Virus genome (UHGV): UHGV-0385690
Reading direction: 5' to 3' (one strand)
From: a virus
DNA: 41,916 nt
A program made the translations under genes and the position numbers. This document shows, in pieces, positions 1,843 through 35,384 of the stretch. Position 1 is the first letter of the stretch. The number at the start of each line of letters is the position of its first letter. The notes beneath the pieces were generated by a model. That model saw only the letters and a program-made list of their open reading frames with translations. It did no database searches and was not told the origin of the DNA.

Positions 1843-1905
1843 AATTTTACCTCTCTTTCTGCTGTTTCAAGGGCAGCTCCTTTATTATTCAAAATAGCAA
1901 TTTAG
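1843..1905 (-). promoter_or_regulatory. upstream cassette copy B
   Basis: ctctctttctgctgtttcaagg(g)cagctcctt...aaaatagcaat is shared with copy A. Confidence 0.4.
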
Positions 1906-3533
1906 CGATAATAAACGACAAAGCTGAAATTTGATTTATTATCTGCTGCGTTTATAAAAACAGAATTTATCGCAATTGTACTGGTGATGGCTATAACTAT
2001 TTTTACATCCCAACCAGATGCGTCACGACCACAACCAGTCATCCAATTACCAGTGTTTTTGCCAATCTCTGCTTTTAATATATTGACACCACATGTATAT
2101 GCGTAATCCGAAGTACGGTAAATCTTAATCATCAACTCATTATATTTTTCGGGTAACGGGCAAGTATCTGTGGCCTTGTATGTACCATTTAATTTCCATT
2201 CTAAATTGCTATTTGCAGTAACAATATCGTCCGTATTCTTCTTTACTTTGGCCGCCAGTGAGCCGGCAACATTTGGATTCATCTGCCGCGCATCCGCCAC
2301 AAATCCCTCTTCCGTAACCAGGCCCGTATTATTGATACTAGACGTTGCAATGTATCCGCTTAATATCTCAGCCAACCTGGAATTGCTCACCAATTCCAGC
2401 GCAACCTTTTGCGCCAACGCATCAAGCAACGCCTGCACATTGCTTGTTCCATCCGCTTCTCCTAATAATCCTTGTTCATCTACGGCCGAAACCGAGGATG
2501 CCTTGCCATTAAAACCACCCAGCCCCTGTGCAATCTGCTTTGCTTCCTCAGCGCTTCTCTCTGCCTCAGTTGCTTTATTCGTTGCTGTTGCGGCCGCCTG
2601 GCTGGCCGTATTCGCACTTTGATTGGCGGCTGTAGCGCTTCTTTCTGCCTCTGTTGCTCTGGTTGTTGCCGTATTAGCCGCCTGGCTGGCTGTATTCGCA
2701 CTTTGGTTGGCGGCCGTGGAGCTTGCCCCTGCTGCTTCTGCTTTAGCAGTCGCTGTGGCGGCCGCCTGGCTGGCTGTGTTCTCGCTCCGGCTGGCGGCTG
2801 TAGCGCTTCTTTCTGCCTCTGTCGCTCTAGTTGCTGCCGTATTGGCCGCCTGGCTGGCTGTATTCGCGCTTTGGTTGGCGGCTGTGGAGCTAGCCTCTGC
2901 TGCTTCTGCCTTAGCAGTCGCCGTGCTGGCCGCCTGTGTTGCTTCCTCCGCCTTTTCCGTCGCCTTTTCCAATGTTGTATTGGCTTTCGCTATGGCTGTC
3001 TCTGCCTGCCGCTGCCATTCAGCCTCATTGTTTACCCTTTGTTCTTCATTGGCTTTGCGCTGTTCCTCTGCTTCCTGTCTTTTACTCTCGTTAGCATCCA
3101 GTGTTTCTGCCTTTTGAGTAATTCGTTCCTCCAGCTGTTCAAATTCGGCAAGGTGGCCTTTGTATGCTTCCCCATCAAATATCGTGTGTCCTACGTACAC
3201 GGCCCCTGGATTCGTAGCCCATTTGATGGTTCCATTTTCATCATATGCGCGAACAGCTATCCAGACTGTACCTTTATGAGACACACATGCGGCCGGGATG
3301 CTCCAGGTCAGCAGGATATACGCTTCTTGCGTTTCTGCGTCGAGCAGGCAGGTATCCAGTATGGCATCCTCATATTCCAAATCAAGCTTGAAGCGCAGGT
3401 TAGCCAGGTCCACACCGCCCGCCGTGATGCGGTTCAGCCTGATATGGCGCACCTCCGAGTTATTATCGTACGTCGTCCCTATCTGGCTATCCTTTTCAGG
3501 AATAACAAGTTTTCTACCTACTACCGTAATCAC
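1902..3533 (-). CDS. fiber-like structural protein: N-terminal globular domain, long Ala/Thr/Ser/Asn/Glu-rich repetitive coiled-coil stalk, C-terminal globular (receptor-binding-like) domain
   Basis: 543-aa ORF with 28-aa repeats such as NQSANTASQAANTAATRATEAERSATAA, encoded by 84-bp tandem DNA repeats. It lies between the head genes and the lysis genes. Confidence 0.55.
   Translation of the reverse strand: MITVVGRKLVIPEKDSQIGTTYDNNSEVRHIRLNRITAGGVDLANLRFKLDLEYEDAILDTCLLDAETQEAYILLTWSIPAACVSHKGTVWIAVRAYDENGTIKWATNPGAVYVGHTIFDGEAYKGHLAEFEQLEERITQKAETLDANESKRQEAEEQRKANEEQRVNNEAEWQRQAETAIAKANTTLEKATEKAEEATQAASTATAKAEAAEASSTAANQSANTASQAANTAATRATEAERSATAASRSENTASQAAATATAKAEAAGASSTAANQSANTASQAANTATTRATEAERSATAANQSANTASQAAATATNKATEAERSAEEAKQIAQGLGGFNGKASSVSAVDEQGLLGEADGTSNVQALLDALAQKVALELVSNSRLAEILSGYIATSSINNTGLVTEEGFVADARQMNPNVAGSLAAKVKKNTDDIVTANSNLEWKLNGTYKATDTCPLPEKYNELMIKIYRTSDYAYTCGVNILKAEIGKNTGNWMTGCGRDASGWDVKIVIAITSTIAINSVFINAADNKSNFSFVVYYR
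2593..2930 (-). repeat. tandem 84-bp repeats (at least 4 copies, phase-preserving, 28 aa each) inside the fiber gene
   Basis: gccgcctggctggc recurs at 2593, 2677, 2761 and 2845, with flanking conserved sequence. Confidence 0.8.
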
Positions 3534-19431: not shown

Positions 19432-19746
19432 CTATAGATAGCTTTCTCCAAAACGCAACCTGAATTCACTCCTTGCCATTTCTTCTGTTAACCCACAGGC
19501 AACTTCATGTTTTTCCCATGCAAGCTGTCCGGCTATTTTGGATAGTTTCTCAGCCATTGGGTTCTCATGTATGCGTTCAAGGACATCCCCCATGTTATGG
19601 CATTTATTGCAGCACGGAATTTTTATTCCATCATCCTCTGCCTTATCACGGTTCCCTTTCCCCCATATAAGATGATGTTGTGCTTCTGTCGGCTTCCCGC
19701 AAAACACGCAATAATCGTTATACTCTGTCACAATGCCCTTGCTCAC
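19432..19746 (-). CDS. HNH-type zinc-finger nuclease (GTG start)
   Basis: C-x2-C ... HH ... N ... C-C-N-K-C-H, seen as CVFCGK..AQHHLIWGKGN..IPCCNKCHN. An AGGAGG RBS lies 7 nt before the GTG. Confidence 0.55.
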   Translation of the reverse strand: MSKGIVTEYNDYCVFCGKPTEAQHHLIWGKGNRDKAEDDGIKIPCCNKCHNMGDVLERIHENPMAEKLSKIAGQLAWEKHEVACGLTEEMARSEFRLRFGESYL

Positions 19747-20542
19747 AGGTTATCCTCCTATATTCTTCAACAAATTTTCGATAACTGACTGCTGCCGCAC
19801 TTCTTGGGCTGTATTCCTCCAGCGGCTTCCCCACCATTATGCTTTCAGCCACTTTTTCGCTGTACCGTATTTTTTCCTTAAACATCTTATATCCCTGGTC
19901 CTGTAACCATTCAACACCAGCTACATTAGTATCGTTATTACGATACATTGTGACCAGGATTCCAAGTAGTTTTATTCCCGAGTTTCGCTCCCTGCATTCT
20001 GATATTTGGTTCTTGATAGTTTCCAGTCCATCTAACGCCCACTGGTCCAGTTTCACCGGCACAATTACATCATCAGTGACCATTAGTGCATTTATTACAT
20101 TAATCCCCATATCTGGAGGATTATCTATAATAATATAATCGTATGGCTTTCCATCCTCTGTCCTGGCATTATGCAATGTCTCAAACTGCCCCACTTTCTC
20201 CCCTAATTTACCCATCAACTGGTATGTGGACGTCAGCAGGGACATATTGGCATTCACCACCCCCAGGCCCGGCTCATCCGTAAATCTCATGATTTTATTC
20301 ACATCCCGCCCTGCCAGAAGCTGGGCCGTGCCGCACATATGGTCCTCTGCATGATACCTTCCCATGGCTTGGCTCAGATTCCCCTGCTTATCATTGTCCA
20401 CCAGCAATACGCTCTGTCCGTATCTATGGTGCAATATGTATCCCATTTCAAGGGCTGTCATGGTTTTTCCAACTCCACCCTTTAAATTGATTATGCTTAT
20501 AATCCTCACTATCTTCCTCCTAAAATACATGTGGATCTCCAC
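19718..20542 (-). CDS. parA: ParA/Soj-family partition ATPase
   Basis: Deviant Walker A IISIINLKGGVGKT and ParA-like length. Confidence 0.8.
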   Translation of the reverse strand: MEIHMYFRRKIVRIISIINLKGGVGKTMTALEMGYILHHRYGQSVLLVDNDKQGNLSQAMGRYHAEDHMCGTAQLLAGRDVNKIMRFTDEPGLGVVNANMSLLTSTYQLMGKLGEKVGQFETLHNARTEDGKPYDYIIIDNPPDMGINVINALMVTDDVIVPVKLDQWALDGLETIKNQISECRERNSGIKLLGILVTMYRNNDTNVAGVEWLQDQGYKMFKEKIRYSEKVAESIMVGKPLEEYSPRSAAAVSYRKFVEEYRRITCEQGHCDRV

Positions 20543-22919: not shown

Positions 22920-23177
22920 TTACACAATTTTTCGTCTTGGTATCAGATTTACAGGCTGTTTCACATGATGTTCTACGCTCTCTTTACCATTTACCATTTC
23001 AATCAGCAGGTCCAGGTTTACTAATCTTGTTTTCCCTGTTTTCCCGGCCTTGATATGCGGTATCTTCCCCTCCAGTACCCATGTCCTAAGAGTGCAATAT
23101 GTAAGTTTAGTTTCTGGATCCTCCTGCTTGAAGTAATCAGCACATTCTTTTATTGTCCTCATTCTTGGAACTGACAT
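22920..23177 (-). CDS. excisionase/MerR-like HTH protein (Xis or Cro-like)
   Basis: MSVPRMRTIKECADYFKQEDPETKLTYCTLRTWVLEGKIPHIKAGKTGKTRLVNLDLL matches the Xis-type winged-helix pattern. Confidence 0.55.
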   Translation of the reverse strand: MSVPRMRTIKECADYFKQEDPETKLTYCTLRTWVLEGKIPHIKAGKTGKTRLVNLDLLIEMVNGKESVEHHVKQPVNLIPRRKIV

Positions 23178-23193
23178 TTTTGTCTCCTTTCTG

Positions 23194-23367
23194 TTACTAT
23201 GCTGAACGCGGCTCTTTGTCTTCTCTCTTTGCCTCTCGGTCCAGTCTCTCTTTAGCTTCCAAAGCATCTGTTGCAGCCTTCACGATAATAAGCGTGCTCA
23301 TGTCCATTTGCTTCATCTTTTTTACTATCCCTACTATCACGCTCTCTTTGAGTGATTCTGATGACAT
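23194..23367 (-). CDS. 57-aa first gene of the leftward early transcript (Cro-position)
   Basis: MSSESLKESVIVGIVKKMKQMDMSTLIIVKAATDALEAKERLDREAKREDKEPRSA, with GGAGGTGAA-type RBS context. Confidence 0.3.
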
Positions 23368-24300: not shown

Positions 24301-25521
24301 ATGAGTGAATTATTAATATTATCCATGATATTTTCAATATGCCTTTTTTTCCTTGCAAACAAGAAAAAGGTTAATTCTAATAGTAAATCAGAAGATATTC
24401 TGAATGTGAAAATTAAGCAATTGGAATTAAGCCTTGAAACTTCCCTTACTGAAAACAAAAATCTCGCCGCTCATAAAATGAGATTGCTCAAAGATTTGGA
24501 ATCTCAATTAGAGAAATATAATGCTTTGCTTTCTGATTATAACAAACTAACGTGTGATTTAAATACATATATTGAACATCGTAATGACGATTTGAAAAAT
24601 ATTTTCTCAAACTGTGACCACGCCTTTTCGTATGTTGCAACTTTATATGCAGATTATCTTCTAGTGGATTATGAAAATGCCAGCAAATATCTGTTAAACA
24701 AAAAAAGGCCAGCCACCTCTGAAGGGCTTAGAATAGGAGCCTTAAAACTTCAAACAAAATCTTATTTGGTTGAGCTCAATAAAACAAAATACCAATTAAA
24801 TTATCTGCTAAATTTATATCCAGAACTAGAAGATTTTATTGAATCTGACGATGACGGAGACAGGGAAGAAGCAGCTCGTTCTAACGATAAAATACCTGAT
24901 GATACATGGCGTTCTCTATCTGAATCTCAAAAAAGCCAATTGCTACTTACAAATTACTTAAATCGGCGCAAGAGTAAGTGGGAAATTGGACGTGACTATG
25001 AACTGTATGTTGGTTATAAATATAGTTTGCAAGGTTATTCTGTCGATTATTTTGGTTCCTATAATGGTTTGGAAGATTTAGGGAGAGATTTGATTGTCAA
25101 AAAGAAGGGGGAGACTGGCATTATCCAATGCAAATATTGGTCCTCAAAAAAGCAAATACACGAAAAACACATTGCTCAGCTATATGGAACTGTCGTGAGT
25201 TATATAATAGAGAATAATTATATTCCTTCTTTGGTTCATGGAATCTTTATAACGAATATATCCTTATCTGATACTGCAAAAAAATTTGCAGATTTTTTGG
25301 ATATTAAATATAAAGAAAACTATCCCATTGGTGAATTTCCACGTATCAAATGTAATATTAGCAAGGATGAATATGGTAATGAAACTAAAATATATCATCT
25401 TCCTACTGACCAGCAATATGATAACGTTAAAATAGAGCATACAGGAGAATGCTTTGCCTTTACAGTAGATGAAGCGGAAAAATTAGGTTTTCGTCACGCC
25501 TACAAATGGCATAATAAATGA
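24301..25521 (+). CDS. membrane-anchored coiled-coil protein with a C-terminal Mrr-cat/NERD-like PD-(D/E)xK nuclease domain (candidate defence or abortive-infection gene)
   Basis: N-terminal TM LLILSMIFSICLFFLA, coiled-coil from about aa 30 to 110, and a C-terminal GRDYELYV...GY.V...GLEDLGRDLIVKKKGETGIIQCKYW (D...D-x-K core). Confidence 0.55.
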   Translation: MSELLILSMIFSICLFFLANKKKVNSNSKSEDILNVKIKQLELSLETSLTENKNLAAHKMRLLKDLESQLEKYNALLSDYNKLTCDLNTYIEHRNDDLKNIFSNCDHAFSYVATLYADYLLVDYENASKYLLNKKRPATSEGLRIGALKLQTKSYLVELNKTKYQLNYLLNLYPELEDFIESDDDGDREEAARSNDKIPDDTWRSLSESQKSQLLLTNYLNRRKSKWEIGRDYELYVGYKYSLQGYSVDYFGSYNGLEDLGRDLIVKKKGETGIIQCKYWSSKKQIHEKHIAQLYGTVVSYIIENNYIPSLVHGIFITNISLSDTAKKFADFLDIKYKENYPIGEFPRIKCNISKDEYGNETKIYHLPTDQQYDNVKIEHTGECFAFTVDEAEKLGFRHAYKWHNK

Positions 25522-25621: not shown

Positions 25622-25651
25622 CGCCCATTTCTGCAATGGGCGTAATTTTTT
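25622..25651 (+). terminator. intrinsic terminator-like hairpin (cgcccat-ttctgca-atgggcg followed by taatttttt) between the nuclease gene and int
   Basis: Read directly. Confidence 0.45.
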
Positions 25652-25671
25652 ACCCTTATGGAGGAAATAAT

Positions 25672-27015
25672 ATGGCATCTGTAAGAAAAAAGAACAATGG
25701 TTATGAGGTTACTGTTAGTGATGGATATGATTCTAACGGTAAGAAAGTCACTGTAAGCAGGACTTTTATCCCCGAACCAAATTGGAATGAAAAAAGAGTT
25801 CAAAAGGAATTAGAAAAATTCAAGGTTGAGTTAGAGAACCGGGTTAAACACGGTGATAATGTCAAGGCAGATAAAATAACCATTGAAAAATTATCAGCCG
25901 ACTTCCTGACAGATATGAAGCCGCCTGAACTCTCTCATACCACATATGAATCTTATAAAAAAATCATAGAACAGCGCATTATCCCACACATAGGCCAGGA
26001 ACGCATTACACGGGTTAATGGTCATACTGCAAAAATGTTTGAAGATGCTGTCAGATCCGAAGGGAGACTTGATAAAAGAAAGGGGCCTATCTCAGAGCAG
26101 ACTATCAAGCGAATGACTTTAGTTTTGAGCGCCATGCTCTCCTATGCGGTAAGCCTTGGGTGGCTTTCCATGAACCCACTTATTTTTTCCGGTAAACAGC
26201 GCAGGAAGCAGACCAAAAAGAAAGAATACGAGGTTGCGTATCTTTCTATAGAGCAGGTAAAAAAATTCCTTTGGATTCTGGATAATCCGGTTAAAATACG
26301 TCGGAAGGCTCATGTTTCCAAGCGCGGAAATAAGGCGATTGAAACAAAAGAATATTTTCAAGACTGGCAGTTAGATACAAAATGGCGCTTTTTCTTTTAC
26401 CTCTCCTTGTTTACAGGTGACAGAAGGGGCGAGAACATATCCCTTACCTGGGATAGCATTGATTTTGAAAAATGTACTGTATCCATCTCAAAATCAACAG
26501 CTAAAACTGAGGATGGAGTATTATTAAAAGATACTAAGACTCATGCGAGCCGTGTCACGGTCGTTCCGCCCTTTGTCATGCAGGTAGGCAAGGAGCTTCT
26601 GGCAGAGCAAAAAAGAATCTGCCTGTCCCTCGGCGATAAGTGGCAAGGCTATCGTGGCCGGAGCTTCAGCAAAAATTTCGTATTTACATCCTGGGATGGT
26701 TCCCAGATGCATCTGGACAGCCCTAGAAGGGAATTTAAACGGCTTATACGTATCTATAATGAAAATGTATCCACCGGTGAAGATGACAGGCTTCCTGAGG
26801 CTGCTACGCTTCACAGCCTACGTCATACAACGGCCTCTATACTTATATCAAATAACATGGATCCACAATCAGTTGCCGGTATTCTGGGACATGCTAAGTC
26901 TACTACTACTTTGAATATATATTCGTACTTTTTCAAATCCAAGAATCAGGAAGCAGCCAATATTATGGAGAATGTTTTACTCAATCCTACTGAAAAAACA
27001 TCAATAGTAGGATGA
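25672..27015 (+). CDS. int: tyrosine integrase
   Basis: MASVRKKNNGYEV start with a GGAGG RBS. C-terminal LRHTTASILISNNMDPQSVAGILGHAKSTTTLNIYSY (HxxR ... Y). Lies adjacent to the att core. Confidence 0.85.
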   Translation: MASVRKKNNGYEVTVSDGYDSNGKKVTVSRTFIPEPNWNEKRVQKELEKFKVELENRVKHGDNVKADKITIEKLSADFLTDMKPPELSHTTYESYKKIIEQRIIPHIGQERITRVNGHTAKMFEDAVRSEGRLDKRKGPISEQTIKRMTLVLSAMLSYAVSLGWLSMNPLIFSGKQRRKQTKKKEYEVAYLSIEQVKKFLWILDNPVKIRRKAHVSKRGNKAIETKEYFQDWQLDTKWRFFFYLSLFTGDRRGENISLTWDSIDFEKCTVSISKSTAKTEDGVLLKDTKTHASRVTVVPPFVMQVGKELLAEQKRICLSLGDKWQGYRGRSFSKNFVFTSWDGSQMHLDSPRREFKRLIRIYNENVSTGEDDRLPEAATLHSLRHTTASILISNNMDPQSVAGILGHAKSTTTLNIYSYFFKSKNQEAANIMENVLLNPTEKTSIVG

Positions 27016-27024
27016 TAGTAGGAT
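27005..27024 (+). repeat. arm-type repeat pair TAGTAGGAT-n2-TAGTAGGAT (11-bp phasing), left arm of attP
   Basis: Same 9-mer pair recurs at 27267..27286 in the same orientation, on the other side of the tRNA-fragment core. Confidence 0.55.
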
Positions 27025-27029
27025 ATCAA

Positions 27030-27068
27030 AAAGAAAAGAACCCCTATCGGAGTTCTTTTCTTTTTGAC
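27030..27068. terminator. hairpin gaaaagaac-n10-gttcttttc followed by a T-run, after int
   Basis: Perfect 9-bp stem. Confidence 0.5.
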
Positions 27069-27104
27069 TATACTTGTTTTTCCTTGTGAAACCGTACTTT
27101 TTCT

Positions 27105-27150
27105 ATCAAGCCACTGGCCGGACTCGAACCGGCGACCCACGCATTACGAA
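27105..27150 (-). other. attP core: 3'-terminal about 45 nt of a tRNA gene (T-arm GCCGG-TTCGAGT-CCGGC plus acceptor 3' strand CAGTGGC-T), with no 5' half
   Basis: Minus strand reads cgtaatgcgtgGGTCGCCGGTTCGAGTCCGGCCAGTGGCT. No complementary 5' acceptor strand is found upstream. Flanked by the AT-rich region 27151..27265 and by arm repeats. Confidence 0.6.
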
Positions 27151-27266
27151 AATCTATTTTAAGTTTGAATGATTATCATTTTCTCTTATTTTTCCTTAAA
27201 ATACGTTGTTTTTCATGCTTTAATTTTTTCTATTTTTCATTCTTTTTTGCTTTGTTTTAATTTGTG

Positions 27267-27286
27267 TAGTAGGATTTTAGTAGGAT
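27267..27286 (+). repeat. arm-type repeat pair TAGTAGGAT-n2-TAGTAGGAT, right arm of attP
   Basis: See the left-arm entry. Confidence 0.55.
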
Positions 27287-27350
27287 ATGGGTCACCGGCT
27301 AACGGTTTACTATGGGGGTGCGCATCGCTTTTATATTTATACATTTTACA

Positions 27351-30300
27351 CTATTGCTTCTTTGCATTCTCATCTCTCTCTCTTTCTTTAGCCGCTTTTC
27401 TCCAGCTTGAATAATCAGTTCCGCTGTATATATTTTTTCCGTCCACCCTCAGTACATTTAATTTTGCCTGGATTGCTTCATATTCTTTACGGTTTCCCTC
27501 CAGATATGCTGCTATCCATTTTTCTTTATAGGACCGCGTAATGGATGACTTAATGCTACTTATGGCCTCTGACTTTGTTTTCCCGGCTTTGGTTTTGCTG
27601 TCTATGATTTCAGCCGATATCGCTTTAAAGGCATCCAGGCTCTTCACTGTATTGTCTACTTTCTCAACTGCTCCGAGGATATCTCTGGAAGAGTAAATGC
27701 TCCACTCTTCTTCGTCTTTTTCCCCAGTCAGTATCTCACCATACAGTTCATCCGGATCCGTTTTCGCCTCTGCCTCCCAGTCTATCTCTTCCCCTGTACT
27801 GAGCTGATTGATTCTGGAATCAACCACGGAAGTTACCAGTTTTCCGGCATATCCTTCTGCGATTAGTTCACCAACAGCCGCTTTGTATGCTTCTGTATCA
27901 GCTTCCATTTTGGCCTGTGCTGCGGTTTCAATCCTTGGGTCTATATAATCTTTTGATATAAGTTCTCCTTTTATGAGGGACTTAATTTTATTGCTTATGG
28001 TTTCATTGTCGAACTCCGCTTTGTTTAAATCGGTCTTGATCCGCTTCTGGAGAGCCTTATCACCGTTTCTTTGGGCTTCGATCATCATTCCTGCGTATAG
28101 ATTCAAGTTATCTTTGCTTCCTATGGCATATTTTTGCTTTAACCACGTATAGTCTACTGAATCGCTCCCATGCTCATTAATAACAGTATCTACAATCGCT
28201 CTTAAATCCCTAGTTGCACTTTTTACTGGTGAACCAAACAGTTTACTACCACTCTGAATCACGTCTATTATAACCGCTTGTGGTGTTAAGCTGCTTTCTC
28301 CATCAGCAAGCTTTTTCACCCGGTTTAAAGCCCTGGCTAAATCCTGATAAGCAGCAACATCTGGGCGGTTTGGGGTGTATCCATCAATTAATATTCCGTA
28401 CGCATCTTTTACATAAGGGATACTGTTTATTAGATTCATATTGTCTTTGAAATTCCCCCATACATTATCCCAATATTTTTCTATCCATTTCTTATCCCTA
28501 TCATCATCTCTCATTGCATCCTGGATTGCTGCGGCCATTGATGTAACCAGGGCAGCTGCGGTATATACAGCGACCGCTTTAGCCATACGGCCTTTGGCGC
28601 CTTTCTTCCCTACGGCAACATCAGAGGCAGCTCGATAGAGCATATTATATGTTTTAAGTGGTTCCGCCATGAATGCAGTCAACATCTTATCCGAATCACG
28701 TTCGCTTCTCATAATCTGGGTTCTGTGCAGTACTGAATCCACTACCTGTGTTTTGTCAATAACCTCGCTGAATCGTTTCCCTACCTCAGCATAAAACGCT
28801 TCGGTACCAACAGACAGATCCGGGTGTCTGTCCATACATTCAAACTCACATGCTCTCCACAGCCTATTCCATGCGAGCTTATCACCTTTTTCAGCGAATA
28901 TCATAAATGCATTATTGATTTTCTGCGTTTTACTATCTGTCTGGAATAATACATCCTTTATCTGCCTGCTATTGTCCATACGATAGAATCCCCAGTCTTT
29001 CCACTGAGCAATTGGTGCGTATTTACACATAATGTCCCACTGGTCTTTCCTGGTCATCGTAAGCGCGCCTCTGCTCAAATACTTAGCATCTATTTCCATT
29101 GATGCTCTTATATAGGCTGTCGGTTGCTGCAAAGCTACTCTAATGTTACCCGCAACAGAAGCGACCTTCATATTTTGTGACAGTTTGTCCCAGAGATTCT
29201 TGTCTTTATTAAGGCTTCCGTTAATATCCGCTATCAACTTGTCAATATATTTGTTCCCTTCTTTTCCGTAGGTGCGCTCTATTTCCTCCTTTATACTTTT
29301 TCCATCTGCCGCGTTTCTCATATCCATATAATTGAATACTTTATTAAGGTCTGATAGAGGAATCACATAGGCATTGTATGTGCTCATTTGGTCCACTTGC
29401 CTCGAGTATACATCGAATATATCTTCAATCACGATAGGTTTATTCGCTTTTTCCACGGTACTTTTTGTGAATCCTAGGTTTTTGATAGTACTCTGCTGGT
29501 TTTTTAAGTTTCCCTGCTCCGTATGGATATGATTATCATATACTGTAATTGGAAAATAATTTCTCGCTGTATATTTCATATATCCGTACATCTGCATACT
29601 GACTTCATTTCCCCACGCTGCACAATCATCTCCCATAAATCGCTGCATCCCGTCGGCCAATGCCTTTTGTTCCGGCGTCAGAGTATTAATAATCCTTGCT
29701 ATATCTGCCTCTGTCACTTTGGTTTCTCTGTATGCCTTTTCTATTTTTGGCAATATCAGCTTTCCATCTTCGATACGCATTTTACCCGCCCTTGGAGCTG
29801 ATATAATGCCTCCCGTACGTTCATACATGTGAGTGCGCGCCTGGTTTCGCTTGTTCAATTCATATAATGACATTACTTGTGAAATAGTAAGCTCAATTGT
29901 CCCTCCAGACGTTTTATATTTACCCGGCTTTGCCTCTGGTCCAGTCCATTCTCTCAGCGTCTTATATGATATTCCATTATCCTTCAGCAACTTTTCCACA
30001 TGGTCCTGTGCATTCTTAAGTTTTATTGTCTTTTTGTCCAGCCCTTCCCGAAGGGAATTGTAAAGAGATTTGAAGTTATCACCCAGTTTTCCAAACATAG
30101 TCTGTGCATCCAGCATATCATAATTCAACATTTTATCAGCCGGCCCGATTACTCCCAGATATTCTGAGTGGTTCTTTCGGTCCTGTAAATCGTCAAATAC
30201 GCCTTCCGCAAGAATGCTGAGTTGTCCGGAACGTTTGTTACTCTTTAAGGTGTTGGCCTCCGTGATTGCCTTTTTCATAGACAACACGACCTTTTTTAGT

Positions 30301-33300
30301 TCTTCCATATGGTAAACATCCAAGTTGTCCAGTTTTTCCACGCCTTCCGCTTTCTTTGCAATTGCTTCAATCCGCTCAACAAGGTCTGGGTCTATCTCCA
30401 TATAGAACTCTCTTCCATCCTTCCCACGAAGGATACCATCTTCCTTTATAATCTTTTCAAATGCATCCTTTGCATTCCTCCAAGCCGTGGTGCGCTGGGT
30501 AGGTATCCCGTTGTTATTCAGTTCATTAGATGAAAAATCAATATTGGAAAGGAATTCTGCCACAACGGTTCTAATTTCCTCCGGGATATGTTTTGTATCC
30601 GTGGGTTTTAACAGCCAAGTCTGCATTGTCTTTACTTCCTTCATGATTATTTTCTTGGCTTCCCTAGCTCTCTGATTCTCTCTCACTCGTTTTGTCTGAT
30701 CACGGTTTTTCTGCTGCATTGCCGCCAGAGCCTGATTCTTTTCATTTCTGAGGTCATCCATCTTCTTTTTATAATATTCCTTCTGTTCCCTCTGCTGGGT
30801 TGCCGTCAGATTTTTATACGCATTAGCAAGCTTTTGAATCTCCTGTATATTCTCCCTACGAACCCGGTATAGATTGTCCTCATACTGCTTTTTCAGATTG
30901 TTCTTATACTCCCTCATTTTCTGAGAGTACTCCCGCCTCACCTTCTGTATCTCCGCCTCTTTACGGTCCGCGAATGTAGGTTTTTCCTGACGTACGTCAA
31001 AGTAAGATTGCAAGATATCCTGCCCTACCATATAGGCCATTTCATCCAGGTTGGCCTTATACGGATTTTGTACCTGTATTTCGGTCTGTTCCAGCGCATC
31101 CGCGATGGCAACTAGCTGGTCGGCCGGATGGGTAATATCTTCCGGGAATAATTCCGGATGTAGTGCTGACAATTCTTGATACAAGCTGTCTACCGGTATT
31201 CCATCGTTTCCCAATTTCATCCTGCCAAAATTACGCTTCCTAAATTCGTTATATCCGCCCGATACCGCCATGTCTGCCTTGTCCTGTTCAGAAATCTTAA
31301 TCTTGGTATTTTTTATCTGGTTTCTGACATCCTTATACTGTTGTGTCATTTCCGTATCAACCTGCCTGGATTGCTTTAGGATGCCCTTTGCAATACTCGT
31401 GGCGGCTTCTGTTAACTGGGCGCTGTCCACATGTTCGGCACTTCGGATATATCCATACAACTTATCCAGATTTTTTATAAGTGTTTCTGGTTTGTAGGTG
31501 CTGTTATATTCTCCAAGCAGTCCTTTTGCCACTTTTTCCACATCACGCTGCCTTACCTCGTTTTTGGGGGTAAGCGTAAATTGTTTTTCAAGGAGTTTAT
31601 TAGCATCTCTCAAAGCCTGATTTTCATCCAGTAACGCCTCTATATGTCTATCTGTTTCTGCTCTATCTACATCTTCCAACTGTAATCTTATTTTCTCCGG
31701 CTGGTTTTCACCGTTGACATCCATAAGTTTATTGAGTATACTGTAGATAGGCGGAAGAGTGTAAGTGTCGCTCCGTGTTTTGCCTCCTTGGAGGTCCGGG
31801 GTCTTGAACGGCATAACACTCTCCGCCTTTGTTGTGTGTACTTCATGCAGATACATTTTATTATCATCTAACAATTTCACAACTGCCAATCCATAATATT
31901 TCCCAGCATACTTTCCCTCAGAAATATTTACCTTAGCTCCTATCACGGCTGAATCATAACCCCTGTTTTTCCAGTTCTTTTTATAGTCCAATACATAGCC
32001 GTTTTTCAATATATCCGGAACAGCTGCAAATGTAATTGCCTTTGCCCGTCCTACTCCATGGCCTATATCATCCTTTACGCTATCTCTATCAAGATATATG
32101 TCTCCTACTACTTCATTGTGCACTTTTCCTCCGATTGACTTATAAAAATCAGAAACTTGGGTTACAAGGTCTTTCTCGCCCTTTTCAAATTCGTTTCCTG
32201 ATAAATCCGCTACCGAATCCATTTCTCTGACCTTTTCATAATTCTCTTCAATGTTTTCATCTGTCACCAATTCTGGTTTTTCCAAGGCGTACTGTTCCTT
32301 CTGCCCCTCTGCCTGTCCCTGTCTGTCTGCTTTGTATGTTTCGCTGGCGTCTGACAGTGCATGCATCCAGGCGTCTCTGGCATCCTCATAATATCTCAGG
32401 TCCTCTTCCAGTCCCTTTGCGGCTTCCCTGGTGCTTCCATTCTTCATCAGCTGTTTGATGGAATCAACCACATCACTCAGGAAATCCACGATTCTCTGTG
32501 CAATTGTTTTGTCCTTTTTGGCAATAGAATCAATGAATTTTGGATCATTAAAGAACTTCTGCGTGGCGTCCGCCACAACCTCATCCATGATTTCCTCCCG
32601 TGTCAACTCCTGTCCGGCCTCTGCGTACCTGTTTTCATAGCTCTCCATGAGGTTTTCCAAGGATGTGTTTTCCGATTTCATAACGGCTTCCACGGCTATC
32701 TCTGTATACAGCCTATATCCCTTTGGCGAATACTTCTTGATATGGTGTGTCAGTTCATGGGTAAGAGTTCCGTTGAAATCGTTGCTGTTAATGGAGATAG
32801 TGATTTCTCCATTTCCATAAGAGCCGGCCGCGTTGGTCTGTCCCAATCCATCCACCAGATTAATTTTTAAACCGGTCATCTTTCCTATATGCTCTGCCAC
32901 TTTACGCTGCGGTGTAGTTGCGCTTTCCGATACAGTTCCCAACCCTCCAGTCCTTAGGATTCCCTGGGGAACGGTTTTGGGCCGGCCGGTTTTCAGGTCT
33001 ATATTGTTGTCCGTGTTGTAATCCTGCGCGCCGGCTTTATATGCATCCACAAACTGTTCATTCGTTAGTACGCTCATAATGGCCGAGCGTTCTGCAATAT
33101 CCATGCTCACGTTATAGTAACCTGCATCGTAGGCACGCCCAAAAGCTTTATTGTAGGCAGACAGCTCAATGCTGCCGTCATATCCTTTCTGTAATGCCTC
33201 CTGGCCATTCTTCCCATATGGCTTTCTATATGCTTCTGTCTGATTCGGAACAGCCTGGCTGGCCACTGTTTGATTCACAGCCGGTTTCTGTGTTGGTTCC

Positions 33301-35384
33301 GTCTGGTTTTGAGCTTTGGTCGGCGCTTCCTCTGGCTCATTATACGGCTCGTATTCGGCTGTTTCGGGTTCGGTGTAAGTTTGTTCATCCGCTTCCGTTC
33401 CTGTGGCCTGCTGGCTATTCTGAGCGTTTTCCCTGGCTGCTTTTTCCTCGTTATGGCGCATGGTGTTTTCCATGAACTGCTGAAACCGTATCGCATACTC
33501 TGCCTTCTCGCGGTTAGAAACAAATTCCTTGTTGGCCTGTTTGGCCGCGTATTCCTCTGCCATTTGCTTCAGCTTAGATGCTTCCTGATAATCTGCCGGA
33601 TCTGCATAGCTTTCCGGCTTAATATCTGACAAGCCATTGACATAATCACGATAGTCTGGGTTGATGCTCTTTCCATACTGATTTTTAGCCCGATTGTTTG
33701 ATATGGCTCCAGGCGCATTCAGAATACCAGCGGTCAAGGCACCTAGTGCAAAATCTTCCCATGTCTGAGGGTCTTTAAGGTCTCCAGCAAGGTCCAGATT
33801 GTCTCCGTATATCATGCTCTTTCTGACGGATTCCGTCAGGTCCTGCACGGCCTCCTGAGTTCCTTCTGACAGCATATCACCACCATAATTAGCCGCCCCA
33901 AGGACTGCCCTACGGATTGCCGGATTTTTCGCCAAGGCATTTGATATGCCCTGTTTAGCCGCCTGGCCTACTTTACTGTTTTTTAATACCTTCCCTACGG
34001 CTCCGCCGCCATAGGCCGCGATACCGCCCAATAGCCAGTTGGTTACATATTCATCGGCGGCAGTAAGGGCCGCATTCATCTGGGCCCCCTCAACCGGACG
34101 CCCTTCCATGATATCCTGCCGATAAGTCTGACCTGCCATTTGAGCTGACATTATACCGCTTCCCAAAGCCCCCTTTGCCGCCCAAGCGGACAGTTTTCCA
34201 CCAAATTTTCCTATAGTTCCCGCGGCTCCAGCGCTTCCTGCGCCTCCCGTTGCCGCTGCAATTGCAATAGATGGAGCCAGGTTTCCAAGACCGGACGCAA
34301 GGTTGTAAGCTAATCTTTCAGCGCCTCCAGCCTGACTATTTAGCAGCTCCTGGTAATATTCGGATTCTGTGATGTTGTAGTCCGGCTGTCTGCCTAATAT
34401 TGCATCTGGCAGGTGTCCGATTCCTTTCACAGCGCTTTCCGCACCTATTCCAAATGATTTTCCAATATTGTACGGAACCTTCATGGGGTCTGGTACGGTC
34501 GTTTCGTCTCTGGTGTATTTATCCTGCGCGCTTCTCAGGTTGATTGTATCTTGCAGACTATCCAGGTATTTATCTGCCGCCTCCTTTCCGGCCTTTTCAA
34601 ATACATAATCATATGTATATCGCTCTCGCTCGGTCATAAGGGCATACTTCCGCAGCATATTATCGCTTTCCGAGCCTACTCCCATAGTTCTTTTTAGGGT
34701 TTTCTCCCGAATGTCCTCCTGGGTTGCCCCGTCTTTTCCCCACATCTTTTCCATTTGCCTGTATGCATCTTCTACTGGATTGGATGTTTTCTTCCAAAAT
34801 TGGGCGCGCTCCATCCATGAAGGGTCATTCGCTTTGGCTTTTTCAACGGTTTGGGCAAAGTCTGGTTCATTAGGCAGGTCAATGTATCGCTTAAACTGAT
34901 ATCCATCCTGATATCCTATTTTATTCAGTATTCTTTTTGCTGCTTCCCGCTCCTGTGCATCCTTTTTTCTTCTGGCAGTCGCTTCCCGTGTTCTTTCCTC
35001 AATTGCATCCCTATTTATTTCGTCCTGCATGATAGCTGCATAGGATGTTCCTCTGCTTTCGTGGTTTCCAGACAAATAAGAGGACAATATCGGCGTTTTG
35101 CTCTGCATCGTGCTTGTTGAATGCTGTATATGCTCTTTGTCGCTACGCTCTCCGTCCATCTGTTTTGGTATCTTCTGCGTAGCAGCCCCCAGACGTTCCC
35201 GTCTTCTTCGAAATATCTCTACCGGTGACATTCCAGTATCTTCCGAAACATCTCCCTCCTGATTAATTGCCTGTCTTCTTCTCTCAAAAATCCTTGCCGC
35301 TGCGCTGACCTTCTCTTCTTCTCCATCTTCCTTTAAGGATGATATAGTCATATTGTACCTATCATAGTTTTTCCTTGTTGACAT
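27351..35384 (-). CDS. giant (2677 aa) virion-associated multidomain protein: glycine-rich hydrophobic segment (aa about 360-560), DUF4157-like HExxH zincin motif, long coiled-coil regions (tape-measure-like, ejection or polyvalent protein)
   Basis: Single uninterrupted ORF with an AAAGGAGAA RBS. Tape-measure-like Gly zipper GLGNLAPSIAIAAATGGAGSAGAAGTIGKFGG...GGIAAYGGGAVGKV. Motif GNGEITISINSNDFNGTLTHELTHHI. Confidence 0.6.
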   Translation of the reverse strand: MSTRKNYDRYNMTISSLKEDGEEEKVSAAARIFERRRQAINQEGDVSEDTGMSPVEIFRRRRERLGAATQKIPKQMDGERSDKEHIQHSTSTMQSKTPILSSYLSGNHESRGTSYAAIMQDEINRDAIEERTREATARRKKDAQEREAAKRILNKIGYQDGYQFKRYIDLPNEPDFAQTVEKAKANDPSWMERAQFWKKTSNPVEDAYRQMEKMWGKDGATQEDIREKTLKRTMGVGSESDNMLRKYALMTERERYTYDYVFEKAGKEAADKYLDSLQDTINLRSAQDKYTRDETTVPDPMKVPYNIGKSFGIGAESAVKGIGHLPDAILGRQPDYNITESEYYQELLNSQAGGAERLAYNLASGLGNLAPSIAIAAATGGAGSAGAAGTIGKFGGKLSAWAAKGALGSGIMSAQMAGQTYRQDIMEGRPVEGAQMNAALTAADEYVTNWLLGGIAAYGGGAVGKVLKNSKVGQAAKQGISNALAKNPAIRRAVLGAANYGGDMLSEGTQEAVQDLTESVRKSMIYGDNLDLAGDLKDPQTWEDFALGALTAGILNAPGAISNNRAKNQYGKSINPDYRDYVNGLSDIKPESYADPADYQEASKLKQMAEEYAAKQANKEFVSNREKAEYAIRFQQFMENTMRHNEEKAARENAQNSQQATGTEADEQTYTEPETAEYEPYNEPEEAPTKAQNQTEPTQKPAVNQTVASQAVPNQTEAYRKPYGKNGQEALQKGYDGSIELSAYNKAFGRAYDAGYYNVSMDIAERSAIMSVLTNEQFVDAYKAGAQDYNTDNNIDLKTGRPKTVPQGILRTGGLGTVSESATTPQRKVAEHIGKMTGLKINLVDGLGQTNAAGSYGNGEITISINSNDFNGTLTHELTHHIKKYSPKGYRLYTEIAVEAVMKSENTSLENLMESYENRYAEAGQELTREEIMDEVVADATQKFFNDPKFIDSIAKKDKTIAQRIVDFLSDVVDSIKQLMKNGSTREAAKGLEEDLRYYEDARDAWMHALSDASETYKADRQGQAEGQKEQYALEKPELVTDENIEENYEKVREMDSVADLSGNEFEKGEKDLVTQVSDFYKSIGGKVHNEVVGDIYLDRDSVKDDIGHGVGRAKAITFAAVPDILKNGYVLDYKKNWKNRGYDSAVIGAKVNISEGKYAGKYYGLAVVKLLDDNKMYLHEVHTTKAESVMPFKTPDLQGGKTRSDTYTLPPIYSILNKLMDVNGENQPEKIRLQLEDVDRAETDRHIEALLDENQALRDANKLLEKQFTLTPKNEVRQRDVEKVAKGLLGEYNSTYKPETLIKNLDKLYGYIRSAEHVDSAQLTEAATSIAKGILKQSRQVDTEMTQQYKDVRNQIKNTKIKISEQDKADMAVSGGYNEFRKRNFGRMKLGNDGIPVDSLYQELSALHPELFPEDITHPADQLVAIADALEQTEIQVQNPYKANLDEMAYMVGQDILQSYFDVRQEKPTFADRKEAEIQKVRREYSQKMREYKNNLKKQYEDNLYRVRRENIQEIQKLANAYKNLTATQQREQKEYYKKKMDDLRNEKNQALAAMQQKNRDQTKRVRENQRAREAKKIIMKEVKTMQTWLLKPTDTKHIPEEIRTVVAEFLSNIDFSSNELNNNGIPTQRTTAWRNAKDAFEKIIKEDGILRGKDGREFYMEIDPDLVERIEAIAKKAEGVEKLDNLDVYHMEELKKVVLSMKKAITEANTLKSNKRSGQLSILAEGVFDDLQDRKNHSEYLGVIGPADKMLNYDMLDAQTMFGKLGDNFKSLYNSLREGLDKKTIKLKNAQDHVEKLLKDNGISYKTLREWTGPEAKPGKYKTSGGTIELTISQVMSLYELNKRNQARTHMYERTGGIISAPRAGKMRIEDGKLILPKIEKAYRETKVTEADIARIINTLTPEQKALADGMQRFMGDDCAAWGNEVSMQMYGYMKYTARNYFPITVYDNHIHTEQGNLKNQQSTIKNLGFTKSTVEKANKPIVIEDIFDVYSRQVDQMSTYNAYVIPLSDLNKVFNYMDMRNAADGKSIKEEIERTYGKEGNKYIDKLIADINGSLNKDKNLWDKLSQNMKVASVAGNIRVALQQPTAYIRASMEIDAKYLSRGALTMTRKDQWDIMCKYAPIAQWKDWGFYRMDNSRQIKDVLFQTDSKTQKINNAFMIFAEKGDKLAWNRLWRACEFECMDRHPDLSVGTEAFYAEVGKRFSEVIDKTQVVDSVLHRTQIMRSERDSDKMLTAFMAEPLKTYNMLYRAASDVAVGKKGAKGRMAKAVAVYTAAALVTSMAAAIQDAMRDDDRDKKWIEKYWDNVWGNFKDNMNLINSIPYVKDAYGILIDGYTPNRPDVAAYQDLARALNRVKKLADGESSLTPQAVIIDVIQSGSKLFGSPVKSATRDLRAIVDTVINEHGSDSVDYTWLKQKYAIGSKDNLNLYAGMMIEAQRNGDKALQKRIKTDLNKAEFDNETISNKIKSLIKGELISKDYIDPRIETAAQAKMEADTEAYKAAVGELIAEGYAGKLVTSVVDSRINQLSTGEEIDWEAEAKTDPDELYGEILTGEKDEEEWSIYSSRDILGAVEKVDNTVKSLDAFKAISAEIIDSKTKAGKTKSEAISSIKSSITRSYKEKWIAAYLEGNRKEYEAIQAKLNVLRVDGKNIYSGTDYSSWRKAAKERERDENAKKQ

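What the first reader, a model, noticed from the sequence alone, without database searches (positions are those of the whole stretch)
27005..27286. Intact attP: tRNA 3'-fragment core flanked on both sides by phased TAGTAGGAT arm repeats
The core (27105..27150, minus strand) is the last about 45 nt of a tRNA (T-arm plus acceptor 3' strand) with no 5' half. That is the signature of a phage that integrates into, and reconstitutes, a tRNA gene. Identical pairs TAGTAGGAT-nn-TAGTAGGAT with 11-bp phasing lie about 90 bp to the left (overlapping the int stop) and about 120 bp to the right, and an AT-rich spacer lies between. Having both arms on one molecule means attP is uninterrupted. That fits the circular-genome inference and argues against this being an integrated prophage junction.
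Basis: partly seen in the sequence, partly recalled or inferred. Interest (0 to 1): 0.55.

Follow-up and report, generated by a model that had tools for sequence, protein, structure and literature searches.

The report
Intact phage attP in tRNA-Thr
This is the intact attachment site (attP) of a temperate gut phage that inserts into, and rebuilds, a threonine tRNA gene of Enterocloster-like bacteria using a lambda-type integrase; it is well supported but textbook biology.

Summary
The observation and the interpretation both hold. TAGTAGGAT occurs exactly four times in 41.9 kb: two 11-bp-phased pairs at 27005/27016 and 27267/27278 (0.31 expected by chance). Between the pairs, the minus strand of 27109-27150 is 42/42 identical to the 3' part of tRNA-Thr(CGT) of Enterocloster and related Lachnospiraceae. 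The identity starts exactly at the anticodon loop, not only at the T-arm.

All four att forms were recovered:
- attP: the window and five other assemblies.
- attB: L110 and L111, an empty site with the complete tRNA.
- attL: L004 and L008, the same chromosomal flank, then core and right arm.
- attR: L009, int, left arm, core and tRNA 5' half.

The window ends join inside a holin gene that is contiguous in related prophages. So the window is the circular, excised form.

Relatives keep the 9-mers and their exact offsets while the spacers diverge to 69% identity. Sister integrases (52-61% identity) use the same core and geometry with different paired motifs (TAGTCGGAT, TAGTGGGAT, GTTAGTCAAAT), and the motif tracks the integrase N-terminal domain.

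This is a canonical heterobivalent tyrosine-integrase attP, closest in layout to mycobacteriophage L5. It is a new member of a known kind, of low to moderate interest.

The parts
25636..27015 (+). int, a tyrosine integrase. The longest ORF is 459 aa. The probable true start is MASVRKK at 25672 (447 aa).
   Evidence: Pfam PF00589 (7e-18) and PF14659; PHROG integrase phrog_1 (2e-49). Relatives start at MAS(V/I)RK. In a 71-sequence alignment R251, K286, H381, R384, H407 and Y417 are invariant. AF2 model: mean pLDDT 85.6, with an N-terminal beta3-alpha domain. Best structural matches are Tn1549 Int and full-length lambda Int.
27005..27013 (+). Arm-type site P1 (TAGTAGGAT). It encodes the last Int residues and overlaps the stop codon.
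   Evidence: Conserved at offset -105 from the core in L009, L016, L017 and L112.
27016..27024 (+). Arm-type site P2 (TAGTAGGAT), 11 bp after P1.
   Evidence: Offset -94 is conserved.
27026..27067 (.). Bidirectional terminator hairpin (19-bp arms, 4-nt loop). It would end int transcription and, after integration, transcription of the rebuilt tRNA.
   Evidence: Inverted repeat I1. RNA fold -22.3 kcal/mol on the + strand (z -5.8) and -28.4 on the - strand (z -8.2). The consensus terminator scan missed it. Its role is inferred.
27109..27150 (-). attP core: the 3' 42 nt of tRNA-Thr(CGT), made of anticodon loop TTCGTAA, 3' anticodon stem, variable loop, T-arm, 3' acceptor strand and discriminator. 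Identity with the empty site extends to 27107.
   Evidence: Identical to complete tRNA-Thr(cgt) genes in L005, L007, L020, L110, L111 and many Enterocloster genomes. There is no 5' half in the window.
27144..27150 (-). Inferred 7-nt overlap (crossover) segment, the anticodon loop TTCGTAA.
   Evidence: Inference. In more than 10 independent arm lineages, identity to the tRNA starts exactly here. L108 tracks its own host's variable-loop allele. Class I sites such as L5 cross over in the anticodon loop (PMC1762012).
27151..27266 (.). P' spacer: 116 nt, 19.8% G+C, with T-tracts roughly every 10 bp. Its length is invariant and its sequence is free to drift.
   Evidence: Length is 116 nt in L104, L106 and L112, with identity down to 69%. 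A bending role is inferred.
27267..27275 (+). Arm-type site P'1 (TAGTAGGAT).
   Evidence: Offset +157 is conserved in L004, L008, L012, L015, L016, L017 and L112.
27278..27286 (+). Arm-type site P'2 (TAGTAGGAT), 11 bp after P'1.
   Evidence: Offset +168 is conserved.
22920..23267 (-). Weak candidate for the excisionase (RDF), an HTH protein of 115 aa in the divergent early region.
   Evidence: PF12728 HTH_17 E 0.046 and TIGR01764 excisionase domain E 0.056. Both are below the curated cut-offs, so this is a lead only.

Best explanation
Window 27005-27286 is the complete, uninterrupted attP of a temperate phage of Enterocloster-like Lachnospiraceae.

Shown:
- The core is a 42-nt copy of the 3' part of the host tRNA-Thr(CGT) gene.
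- Recombination with the chromosomal tRNA gene yields attR (int, P arm, core, host 5' half), which is a complete tRNA whose 3' part is phage-derived.
- It also yields attL (chromosomal downstream flank, displaced 3' fragment, P' arm, late genes).

Inferred:
- The adjacent 447-aa tyrosine integrase is heterobivalent.
- Its N-terminal beta-sheet domain binds the four TAGTAGGAT arm-type sites, one 11-bp-phased direct pair on each arm.
- Its core-binding and catalytic domains act at the core.
- The fixed 84-nt and 116-nt spacers, the latter AT-rich with phased T-tracts, let the arms fold back to build an intasome as in lambda and L5.
- Strand exchange most likely occurs in the 7-nt anticodon loop at the P'-proximal edge of the identity block.
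- The bidirectional hairpin between P2 and the core terminates both int and the rebuilt tRNA.
For: 1. The 9-mer statistics: 4 exact copies against 0.31 expected.

2. The core is 42/42 identical to tRNA-Thr(cgt) genes called by ARAGORN in L005, L007, L020, L110 and L111, and present in Enterocloster genomes.

3. All four att forms were found. attP: the window, L001, L016, L017, L104 and L112. attL: L004 and L008, which keep only the right pair. attR: L009, which keeps only the left pair. attB: L110 and L111, whose flank matches the attL flank at 99.3% and stops at the core edge.

4. Circular permutation relative to the prophage: the window ends are contiguous in L116, L118, L119 and L121.

5. 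Purifying selection on the sites and on the geometry. In L112 (Int 85% identical) the 9-mers are 39/40 identical and the offsets are exactly -105, -94, +157 and +168. The spacer lengths are identical although the P' spacer is 69% identical and the next 60 nt are 55% identical. L017 shows the same pattern.

6. Co-variation in sister integrases that target the same core with the same layout. TAGTCGGAT: L113, with the matching right arm in L068. TAGTGGGAT: L115. GTTAGTCAAAT: L007, L023 and L108, with right arms in L003, L037, L080 and L108. L108 and L007 share the motif and are 77% identical in the N-domain against 57-60% elsewhere. The window Int is 43-46% identical to them in that domain.

7. 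Int has the catalytic residues and about 65 extra N-terminal residues, predicted as three strands plus a helix at pLDDT 77-86. It aligns over 424-435 columns with full-length lambda Int.

8. The architecture matches the literature. Paired 11-bp arm sites flank a tRNA-derived common core in L5, Giles and Cluster K phages (PMC3203893). L5 crosses over in the anticodon loop (PMC1762012).
Against: - There are no binding or recombination data. Assigning the 9-mers to Int rather than to another protein is comparative inference.
- Pfam arm-binding-domain models did not hit the N-terminus, even at E up to 10. The N-domain fold was not searched on its own.
- attL and attR of this exact lineage come from different assemblies, and attR (L009) is cut 25 nt into the tRNA 5' half.
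- attP has no inverted repeat around the anticodon loop, whereas the T-loop has a perfect GCCGG/CCGGC dyad. The crossover position is therefore not settled.
- The excisionase is not identified with confidence.
Confidence: 0.9

Rival explanations
1. Same attP, but strand exchange occurs in the T-loop (class II sublocation), using the perfect GCCGG-TTCGAGT-CCGGC dyad as core-type sites. On this view the anticodon-loop boundary of identity is incidental.
For: The T-arm is the only perfect inverted repeat with a 7-nt spacer in the core. attP shows no symmetry around the anticodon loop (sequence, my reading). T-loop crossover is documented for Ms6 (PMC1762012).
Against: In every lineage examined, identity to the tRNA begins exactly at the 5' edge of the anticodon loop. 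This holds even though the flanks differ completely. L108 matches its own host's variable-loop allele. That match is needed only if this segment becomes part of the functional tRNA, which means the crossover lies 5' of it.
Confidence: 0.2
2. The TAGTAGGAT pairs are binding sites for another phage protein (excisionase/RDF, repressor or a replication initiator), not for the integrase N-domain.
For: No binding data exist. Similar TAGGAT-rich iteron arrays occur in an unrelated phage outside any att context (L196 and L198).
Against: - The pairs sit symmetrically on both arms at exactly conserved distances from the core.
- They segregate with attL and attR as arm sites should.
- The left pair is physically tied to the int stop codon in three sub-lineages.
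- The motif changes with the Int N-domain.
- As far as I know, RDF sites usually lie on one arm only.
Confidence: 0.07
3. The tRNA fragment is a relic, or this is a prophage junction in a chromosome, not an active attP.
For: The window has no terminal repeat. No complete tRNA is present.
Against: - Phage genes lie on both sides.
- The ends close through a holin gene.
- The same uninterrupted arrangement is present in five other assemblies.
- attL, attR and attB counterparts exist.
- In metagenome 3300029084, contigs break at the core in both attP form (L012) and attR form (L009).
Confidence: 0.02

Closest known systems
Mycobacteriophage L5 attP/Int (tRNA-Gly; also Giles)
   Same: - A tyrosine integrase gene lies next to attP.
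- The common core of about 43 bp is the 3' part of a tRNA gene starting at the anticodon loop, where L5 strand exchange occurs (PMC1762012).
- Arm-type sites occur as directly repeated adjacent pairs on both sides of the core (PMC3203893).
   Different: The host phylum differs (Bacillota gut anaerobes against Actinomycetota). The target is tRNA-Thr(CGT). Only four arm sites are detectable here, whereas L5 has additional ones. P1 overlaps the int stop codon. There is no detectable sequence relationship beyond the recombinase fold.
Cluster K1 mycobacteriophage attP sites (CrimD, Anaya, Adephagia)
   Same: Two pairs of 11-bp repeats flank a t(m)RNA-derived common core, with a terminator between core and arm. 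Arm-site consensus differences between close relatives correlate with substitutions in the Int N-terminal region (PMC3203893).
   Different: In K1 the two pairs are inverted relative to each other and the target is tmRNA. Here all four sites are direct. The motif series is broader, running from single-base changes to unrelated motifs.
Bacteriophage lambda attP/Int
   Same: A heterobivalent integrase with separate arm-type and core-type recognition. Long AT-rich arms are needed on both sides. Full-length lambda Int is a structural match.
   Different: To my knowledge lambda's attB is not a tRNA, it has 5 arm sites with mixed orientation plus IHF, Xis and Fis sites, and it has a 15-bp common core. 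Here the common core is 42-44 bp and the architecture is a simple 2+2.
Tn916/Tn1549 conjugative-transposon integrases
   Same: Closest solved relatives by sequence (6emy, E 1.5e-9) and by fold (6en2, E 5e-13). To my knowledge, the Tn916 Int N-domain binds 11-bp direct repeats near the element ends.
   Different: Those elements integrate with low target specificity into AT-rich sites and carry no tRNA-derived core. This one is strictly tRNA-specific and phage-borne.

Membership tests
Heterobivalent (lambda-type) tyrosine integrase attP | Adjacent tyrosine recombinase with the catalytic R-K-H-R-H-Y residues. | tested here: met
   PF00589. R251, K286, H381, R384, H407 and Y417 are invariant in 71 homologues. 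Fold matches Tn1549 Int and lambda Int.
Heterobivalent (lambda-type) tyrosine integrase attP | Separate N-terminal arm-binding domain (three-stranded sheet plus helix). | tested here: inconclusive
   About 65 residues precede the SAM-like domain. They are predicted as E3-7, E10-19, E25-32 and H40-59 at pLDDT 77-86. Alignment to full-length lambda Int spans 424-435 columns. No Pfam arm-domain model hits, and the domain was not fold-searched alone.
Heterobivalent (lambda-type) tyrosine integrase attP | Repeated arm-type sites on both sides of the core, unrelated in sequence to the core. | tested here: met
   Four exact TAGTAGGAT copies at -105, -94, +157 and +168, conserved across relatives.
Heterobivalent (lambda-type) tyrosine integrase attP | Integrase binds the arm sites, and the arms are required for integration. 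| not testable with these tools
   Only co-variation of the motif with the Int N-domain is available.
Heterobivalent (lambda-type) tyrosine integrase attP | attP x attB gives attL + attR, with the arms partitioned between the two junctions. | tested here: met
   attB: L110 and L111. attL: L004 and L008. attR: L009. The junctions come from different assemblies.
Class I (anticodon-loop) tRNA integration site (Williams 2002, as cited in PMC1762012 and PMC4383910) | The phage carries the tRNA 3' segment from the anticodon loop to the 3' end, and the gene is regenerated on integration. | tested here: met
   Identity covers 27109-27150 and starts at TTCGTAA. Complete tRNA-Thr is called at attR of the sister lineages L109, L113 and L115. 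L009 is consistent but cut.
Class I (anticodon-loop) tRNA integration site (Williams 2002, as cited in PMC1762012 and PMC4383910) | Strand exchange occurs within the 7-nt anticodon loop. | not testable with these tools
   Inferred from the uniform identity boundary. The T-loop alternative is not excluded.
tmRNA (ssrA) integration site | The core matches the tmRNA 3' end. | tested here: not met
   The Rfam tmRNA hit scores only 14.3 bits against a gathering score of 47. The acceptor strand CAGTGGC pairs with GCCACTG of tRNA-Thr genes.

The most novel reading that the evidence does not exclude
Many gut Lachnospiraceae phages compete for one tRNA-Thr(CGT) site. They keep the same core and the same 2+2 arm geometry but have diversified their arm motifs, which tracks changes in the Int N-domain.

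The motif series runs from single-base steps (TAGTAGGAT, TAGTCGGAT, TAGTGGGAT) to unrelated motifs (GTTAGTCAAAT, TAGTAGTCAAA).

The most novel reading is that this diversification is selected. It would make co-resident or tandem prophages at the same attB mutually orthogonal, so that one phage's Int cannot excise or scramble another. On this reading the series is a natural recognition-code panel for arm-binding domains.

Genomes with several displaced fragments carrying different motifs (E. lavalensis L053, L058 and L068) are compatible with this but do not prove it.
Probability: 0.3. Interest if true: 0.5.

Novelty: new member of a known kind. Interest (0 to 1): 0.25.

Why it matters
- It assigns a host (Enterocloster and related Lachnospiraceae) and a lifestyle (temperate, integrating at tRNA-Thr(CGT)) to an otherwise unannotated metagenomic phage.
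- It defines a compact int-attP cassette of about 1.7 kb (25636-27300). This could serve as a single-copy integration vector for gut Clostridia, which lack genetic tools.
- The set of sister integrases shares one attB but uses different arm motifs. That offers candidate orthogonal integration modules and a way to read the arm-recognition code.
- Conceptually it adds nothing new to site-specific recombination.

Tried and rejected
- Rfam on 26500-27900 gave no tRNA hit and only a sub-threshold tmRNA hit. I considered a tmRNA target and rejected it on acceptor-stem identity with tRNA-Thr.
- GenBank phage records: blastn found only a 42-nt match to the core in one unannotated record. So there is no described close relative.
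- The consensus terminator scan found nothing. Folding showed a strong bidirectional hairpin.
- Single-sequence AlphaFold gave a useless model (pLDDT 36.8). I repeated it with a 71-sequence alignment.
- An exact 26-nt pattern across the window junction found nothing in IMG/VR. Retrieval through the holin protein followed by blastn did span the junction.
- The fifth, inverted one-mismatch copy at 26984-26992 lies in int coding sequence and varies at synonymous positions in relatives. I judged it to be chance.
- No Int remnant lies next to the chromosomal flank of the empty site. So whether that flank is an old prophage scar stays open.
- A scan for the 9-mer pair in IMG/VR returned 8 loci of this family and 3 unrelated ones. 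It gave no core variants that could map the crossover.
- The excisionase search gave only sub-threshold HTH_17 and TIGR01764 hits.

Full report
**1. Observation**

Reading 26700-27600 shows int ending at 27015, with TAGTAGGAT-GA-TAGTAGGAT at 27005-27024 overlapping its TGA stop. Next come a 19-bp-arm hairpin (27026-27067) and a G+C-rich block. An extremely AT-rich stretch follows, and then TAGTAGGAT-TT-TAGTAGGAT at 27267-27286.

The 9-mer occurs four times in 41,916 nt, only at these positions and all on the + strand. The chance expectation is 0.31, and 0 of 100 shuffles reach four. One-mismatch copies are at chance level. No other non-coding 9-mer in the window is clustered like this.

ARAGORN finds no tRNA in the window. 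Rfam gives only noise plus a sub-threshold tmRNA hit caused by the T-arm.

**2. The core is the 3' part of tRNA-Thr(CGT)**

I scanned IMG/VR with the 29-nt T-arm and acceptor sequence and did the same for GTDB genomes. The scans returned 20 and 81 loci.

Complete tRNA-Thr(cgt) genes containing the sequence are called in L005, L007 and L020 and in L110 and L111. They occur in:
- Enterocloster aldenensis, lavalensis, citroniae, alcoholdehydrogenati and hominis
- [Clostridium] clostridioforme and asparagiforme
- related Lachnospiraceae
- Paludibacteraceae, in an identical 41-nt form

The window matches the tRNA from the first base of the anticodon loop (TTCGTAA) to the discriminator. This is 27109-27150, 42 nt. 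It diverges completely 5' of the loop.

**3. All four att forms exist**

- attP. The same uninterrupted arrangement is present in L001 (Logan SRR20082985, 99.5% identity), L016, L017 and L104, and L112 (Int 85% identical).
- attL. L004 and L008 come from two isolate-genome prophages. They carry a non-phage flank, the core, and the window's right arm with only the right 9-mer pair. L003 has the same flank (98.5%) joined to a different phage arm, so the flank is chromosomal.
- attR. L009 has int, the left arm with only the left pair, the core, and then the tRNA 5' half, which is cut after 25 nt by the contig end.
- attB. One metagenome scan recovered L110 and L111, the latter on a 386-kb contig. 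They carry the same flank followed by the complete tRNA-Thr(cgt), tRNA-Glu and tRNA-Pro. Homology to L004 (99.3% over 2178 nt) stops exactly at the core edge.

In metagenome 3300029084, contigs break at the core in both the attP form (L012) and the attR form (L009). This is expected if both states coexist in the sample.

**4. The window is the excised or circular form**

There is no terminal repeat. However, an 80-aa holin-like ORF (phrog_297) reads seamlessly from the window's end into its start. The joined sequence aligns continuously at 96-98% identity with four related contigs. These include the contigs that carry attL (L118 with L008, L121 with L004) and an isolate prophage whose contig ends at the int stop (L116 with L103).

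The window is therefore a circular permutation of the prophage map, with attP closed.

**5. The 9-mers behave as arm-type sites**

*(a) Selection.* In L112 the 9-mers are 39/40 identical and sit at exactly -105, -94, +157 and +168 from the core. The spacers are exactly 84 and 116 nt. The P' spacer is only 69% identical and the following 60 nt are 55% identical. L017 shows the same pattern.

*(b) Co-variation.* Sister integrases use the same core boundary, the same position (a pair at the int stop, a terminator, the core, then a pair about 157 nt to the right) and the same 11-bp phasing, but with other motifs:

| Motif | Where seen |
|---|---|
| TAGTCGGAT | L113 attR, Int 61% identical; right arm in L068 |
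| TAGTGGGAT | L115 attR, Int 61% identical |
| GTTAGTCAAAT | L007, L023 and L051 left arms; L003, L011, L018, L037 and L080 right arms; both arms in L108, Int 52% identical, whose attR is L109 |
| TAGTAGTCAAA | L006 and L098 |
| TAGTAACCAAA | L058 |

L108 and L007 share the GTTAGTCAAAT motif and are 77% identical over Int residues 1-65, against 57-60% elsewhere. The window Int is 43-46% identical to them in that segment.

*(c) The protein.*
- It has PF00589 and PF14659 and the catalytic residues are invariant.
- About 65 extra N-terminal residues are predicted as three strands plus a helix, at pLDDT 77-86 in an alignment-based model with mean pLDDT 85.6.
- The best structural matches are Tn1549 Int and then full-length lambda Int over 424-435 columns.
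- Pfam arm-domain models do not hit, so I score that defining feature as inconclusive.

**6. Mechanism**

Shown: the core identity, the partition of the arms into attL and attR, the regeneration of the tRNA, and the circular form.

Inferred:
- Int bridges the arm pairs and the core.
- The fixed-length spacers (116 nt at 19.8% G+C with roughly 10-bp-phased T-tracts) provide the bends.
- The hairpin 27026-27067 (-22.3 and -28.4 kcal/mol on the two strands) terminates int and the rebuilt tRNA, whose own terminator is displaced to attL.
- The crossover is in the anticodon loop.

The last point rests on two observations. The identity boundary is identical in more than 10 lineages with unrelated flanks. 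L108 also tracks its own host's variable-loop allele. It agrees with class I sites such as L5 (PMC1762012).

The T-loop dyad, together with the lack of symmetry around the anticodon loop in attP, keeps a T-loop crossover alive at about 0.2.

The excisionase is not identified. ORF 22920-23267 has only sub-threshold HTH_17 and TIGR01764 similarity.

**7. Comparison with known systems and verdict**

The layout is a tRNA-derived common core of about 43 bp starting at the anticodon loop, flanked by directly repeated pairs of 11-bp-phased arm sites, with int adjacent. This is the layout described for mycobacteriophage L5 and Giles.

Cluster K phages show the same layout with inverted pairs. There, arm-motif differences were also linked to N-terminal Int substitutions, and related integrases sharing a site were noted to have different arm sequences (PMC3203893). 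Tens of hundreds of tDNA islands with anticodon-centred sites are catalogued in Islander (PMC4383910).

No close relative is in GenBank phage records.

The finding is correct and well supported. It is a new member of a known kind, and its interest is low to moderate. Its value is practical: host assignment, an integration cassette for Enterocloster, and a natural panel of arm specificities.

Noticed in passing
L108, L109, L113, L115, L068, L006/L098, L058, L007/L023/L051, L003/L037/L080: Sister attP, attL and attR sites share the tRNA-Thr(CGT) core boundary and the 2+2, 11-bp-phased geometry. They carry other arm motifs: TAGTCGGAT, TAGTGGGAT, GTTAGTCAAAT, TAGTAGTCAAA and TAGTAACCAAA. The motif tracks the Int N-terminal domain.
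   Followed up: yes
L002, L010, L014, L042 (also L019, L021): Another phage lineage uses the same core with a different arm architecture. It has five TGGTGGAA (or TGGGGGAA) copies in mixed orientation, all on the int-proximal side, about -177 to -128 from the core. No right-arm copies were seen.
   Followed up: no
L110, L111 and L004, about -92 to -70 nt from the core: The chromosomal flank of the empty site itself contains TAGTAACCAAATAGTAGCCAAA, an 11-bp-phased pair like the L058 arm motif, at the position of a P arm. It may be the scar of an older element. No integrase remnant lies next to it.
   Followed up: partly
L051 and L080 (both on CAAEIR010000123.1, 18,346 nt, Anaerostipes sp. MAG): attR and attL of the GTTAGTCAAAT lineage lie on one contig, at most 17.6 kb apart. 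This could be a small or defective element or satellite, or an assembly collapse.
   Followed up: no
L053, L058, L068 (Enterocloster lavalensis KCTC 15153); L048, L098 (E. alcoholdehydrogenati): Single genomes hold one complete tRNA-Thr(CGT) plus one or two displaced 3' fragments attached to arms with different motifs. This suggests several elements at the same target.
   Followed up: no
L022-L102: The 41-nt 3' part of tRNA-Thr(CGT) is identical in Paludibacteraceae (Bacteroidota) and Enterocloster (Bacillota). All Paludibacteraceae loci showed a complete tRNA with a hairpin flank, and none had arm motifs of this family.
   Followed up: partly
window 27072-27103; L113 2905-2945; L115 2050-2088: Phage P arms carry complete or degenerate copies of the host-type tRNA terminator (CCCTTG...CAAGGG) right after the tRNA end. 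In the window only a half remains (CCTTGTGAAACC). So a 'hairpin plus complete tRNA' arrangement cannot by itself distinguish attB from attR.
   Followed up: partly
window 2593-2850, inside ORF 1902-3533 (-): Four tandem 84-nt (28-codon) repeats lie inside a 543-aa ORF. Apart from the arm sites, this is the only other clustered exact 9-mer repeat in the window.
   Followed up: no
window 19718-20542 (-): A ParA/AAA_31-type ATPase (E 9e-36) is encoded in an integrating phage. This hints at a partition function or another role.
   Followed up: no
window 24301-25521 (+); also L001 and L112: An Mrr_cat nuclease-domain protein (406 aa) lies between the repressor-like HTH gene and int. It is conserved at this position in relatives and may be a lysogeny-expressed defence or moron gene.
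   Followed up: no
window 27351-35384 (-): A 2677-aa ORF ends 65 nt from P'2 and becomes the first gene inside attL. It matches only phrog_22978 (unknown function) and contains an HELTHH metalloprotease-like motif.
   Followed up: no
L196 and L198, about 9000-9260 in L196: An unrelated phage has a dense array of (A/G)TAGGAT-type repeats in both orientations, including TAGTAGGAT pairs, after a gene end. It looks iteron-like and is not an att site of this family.
   Followed up: no
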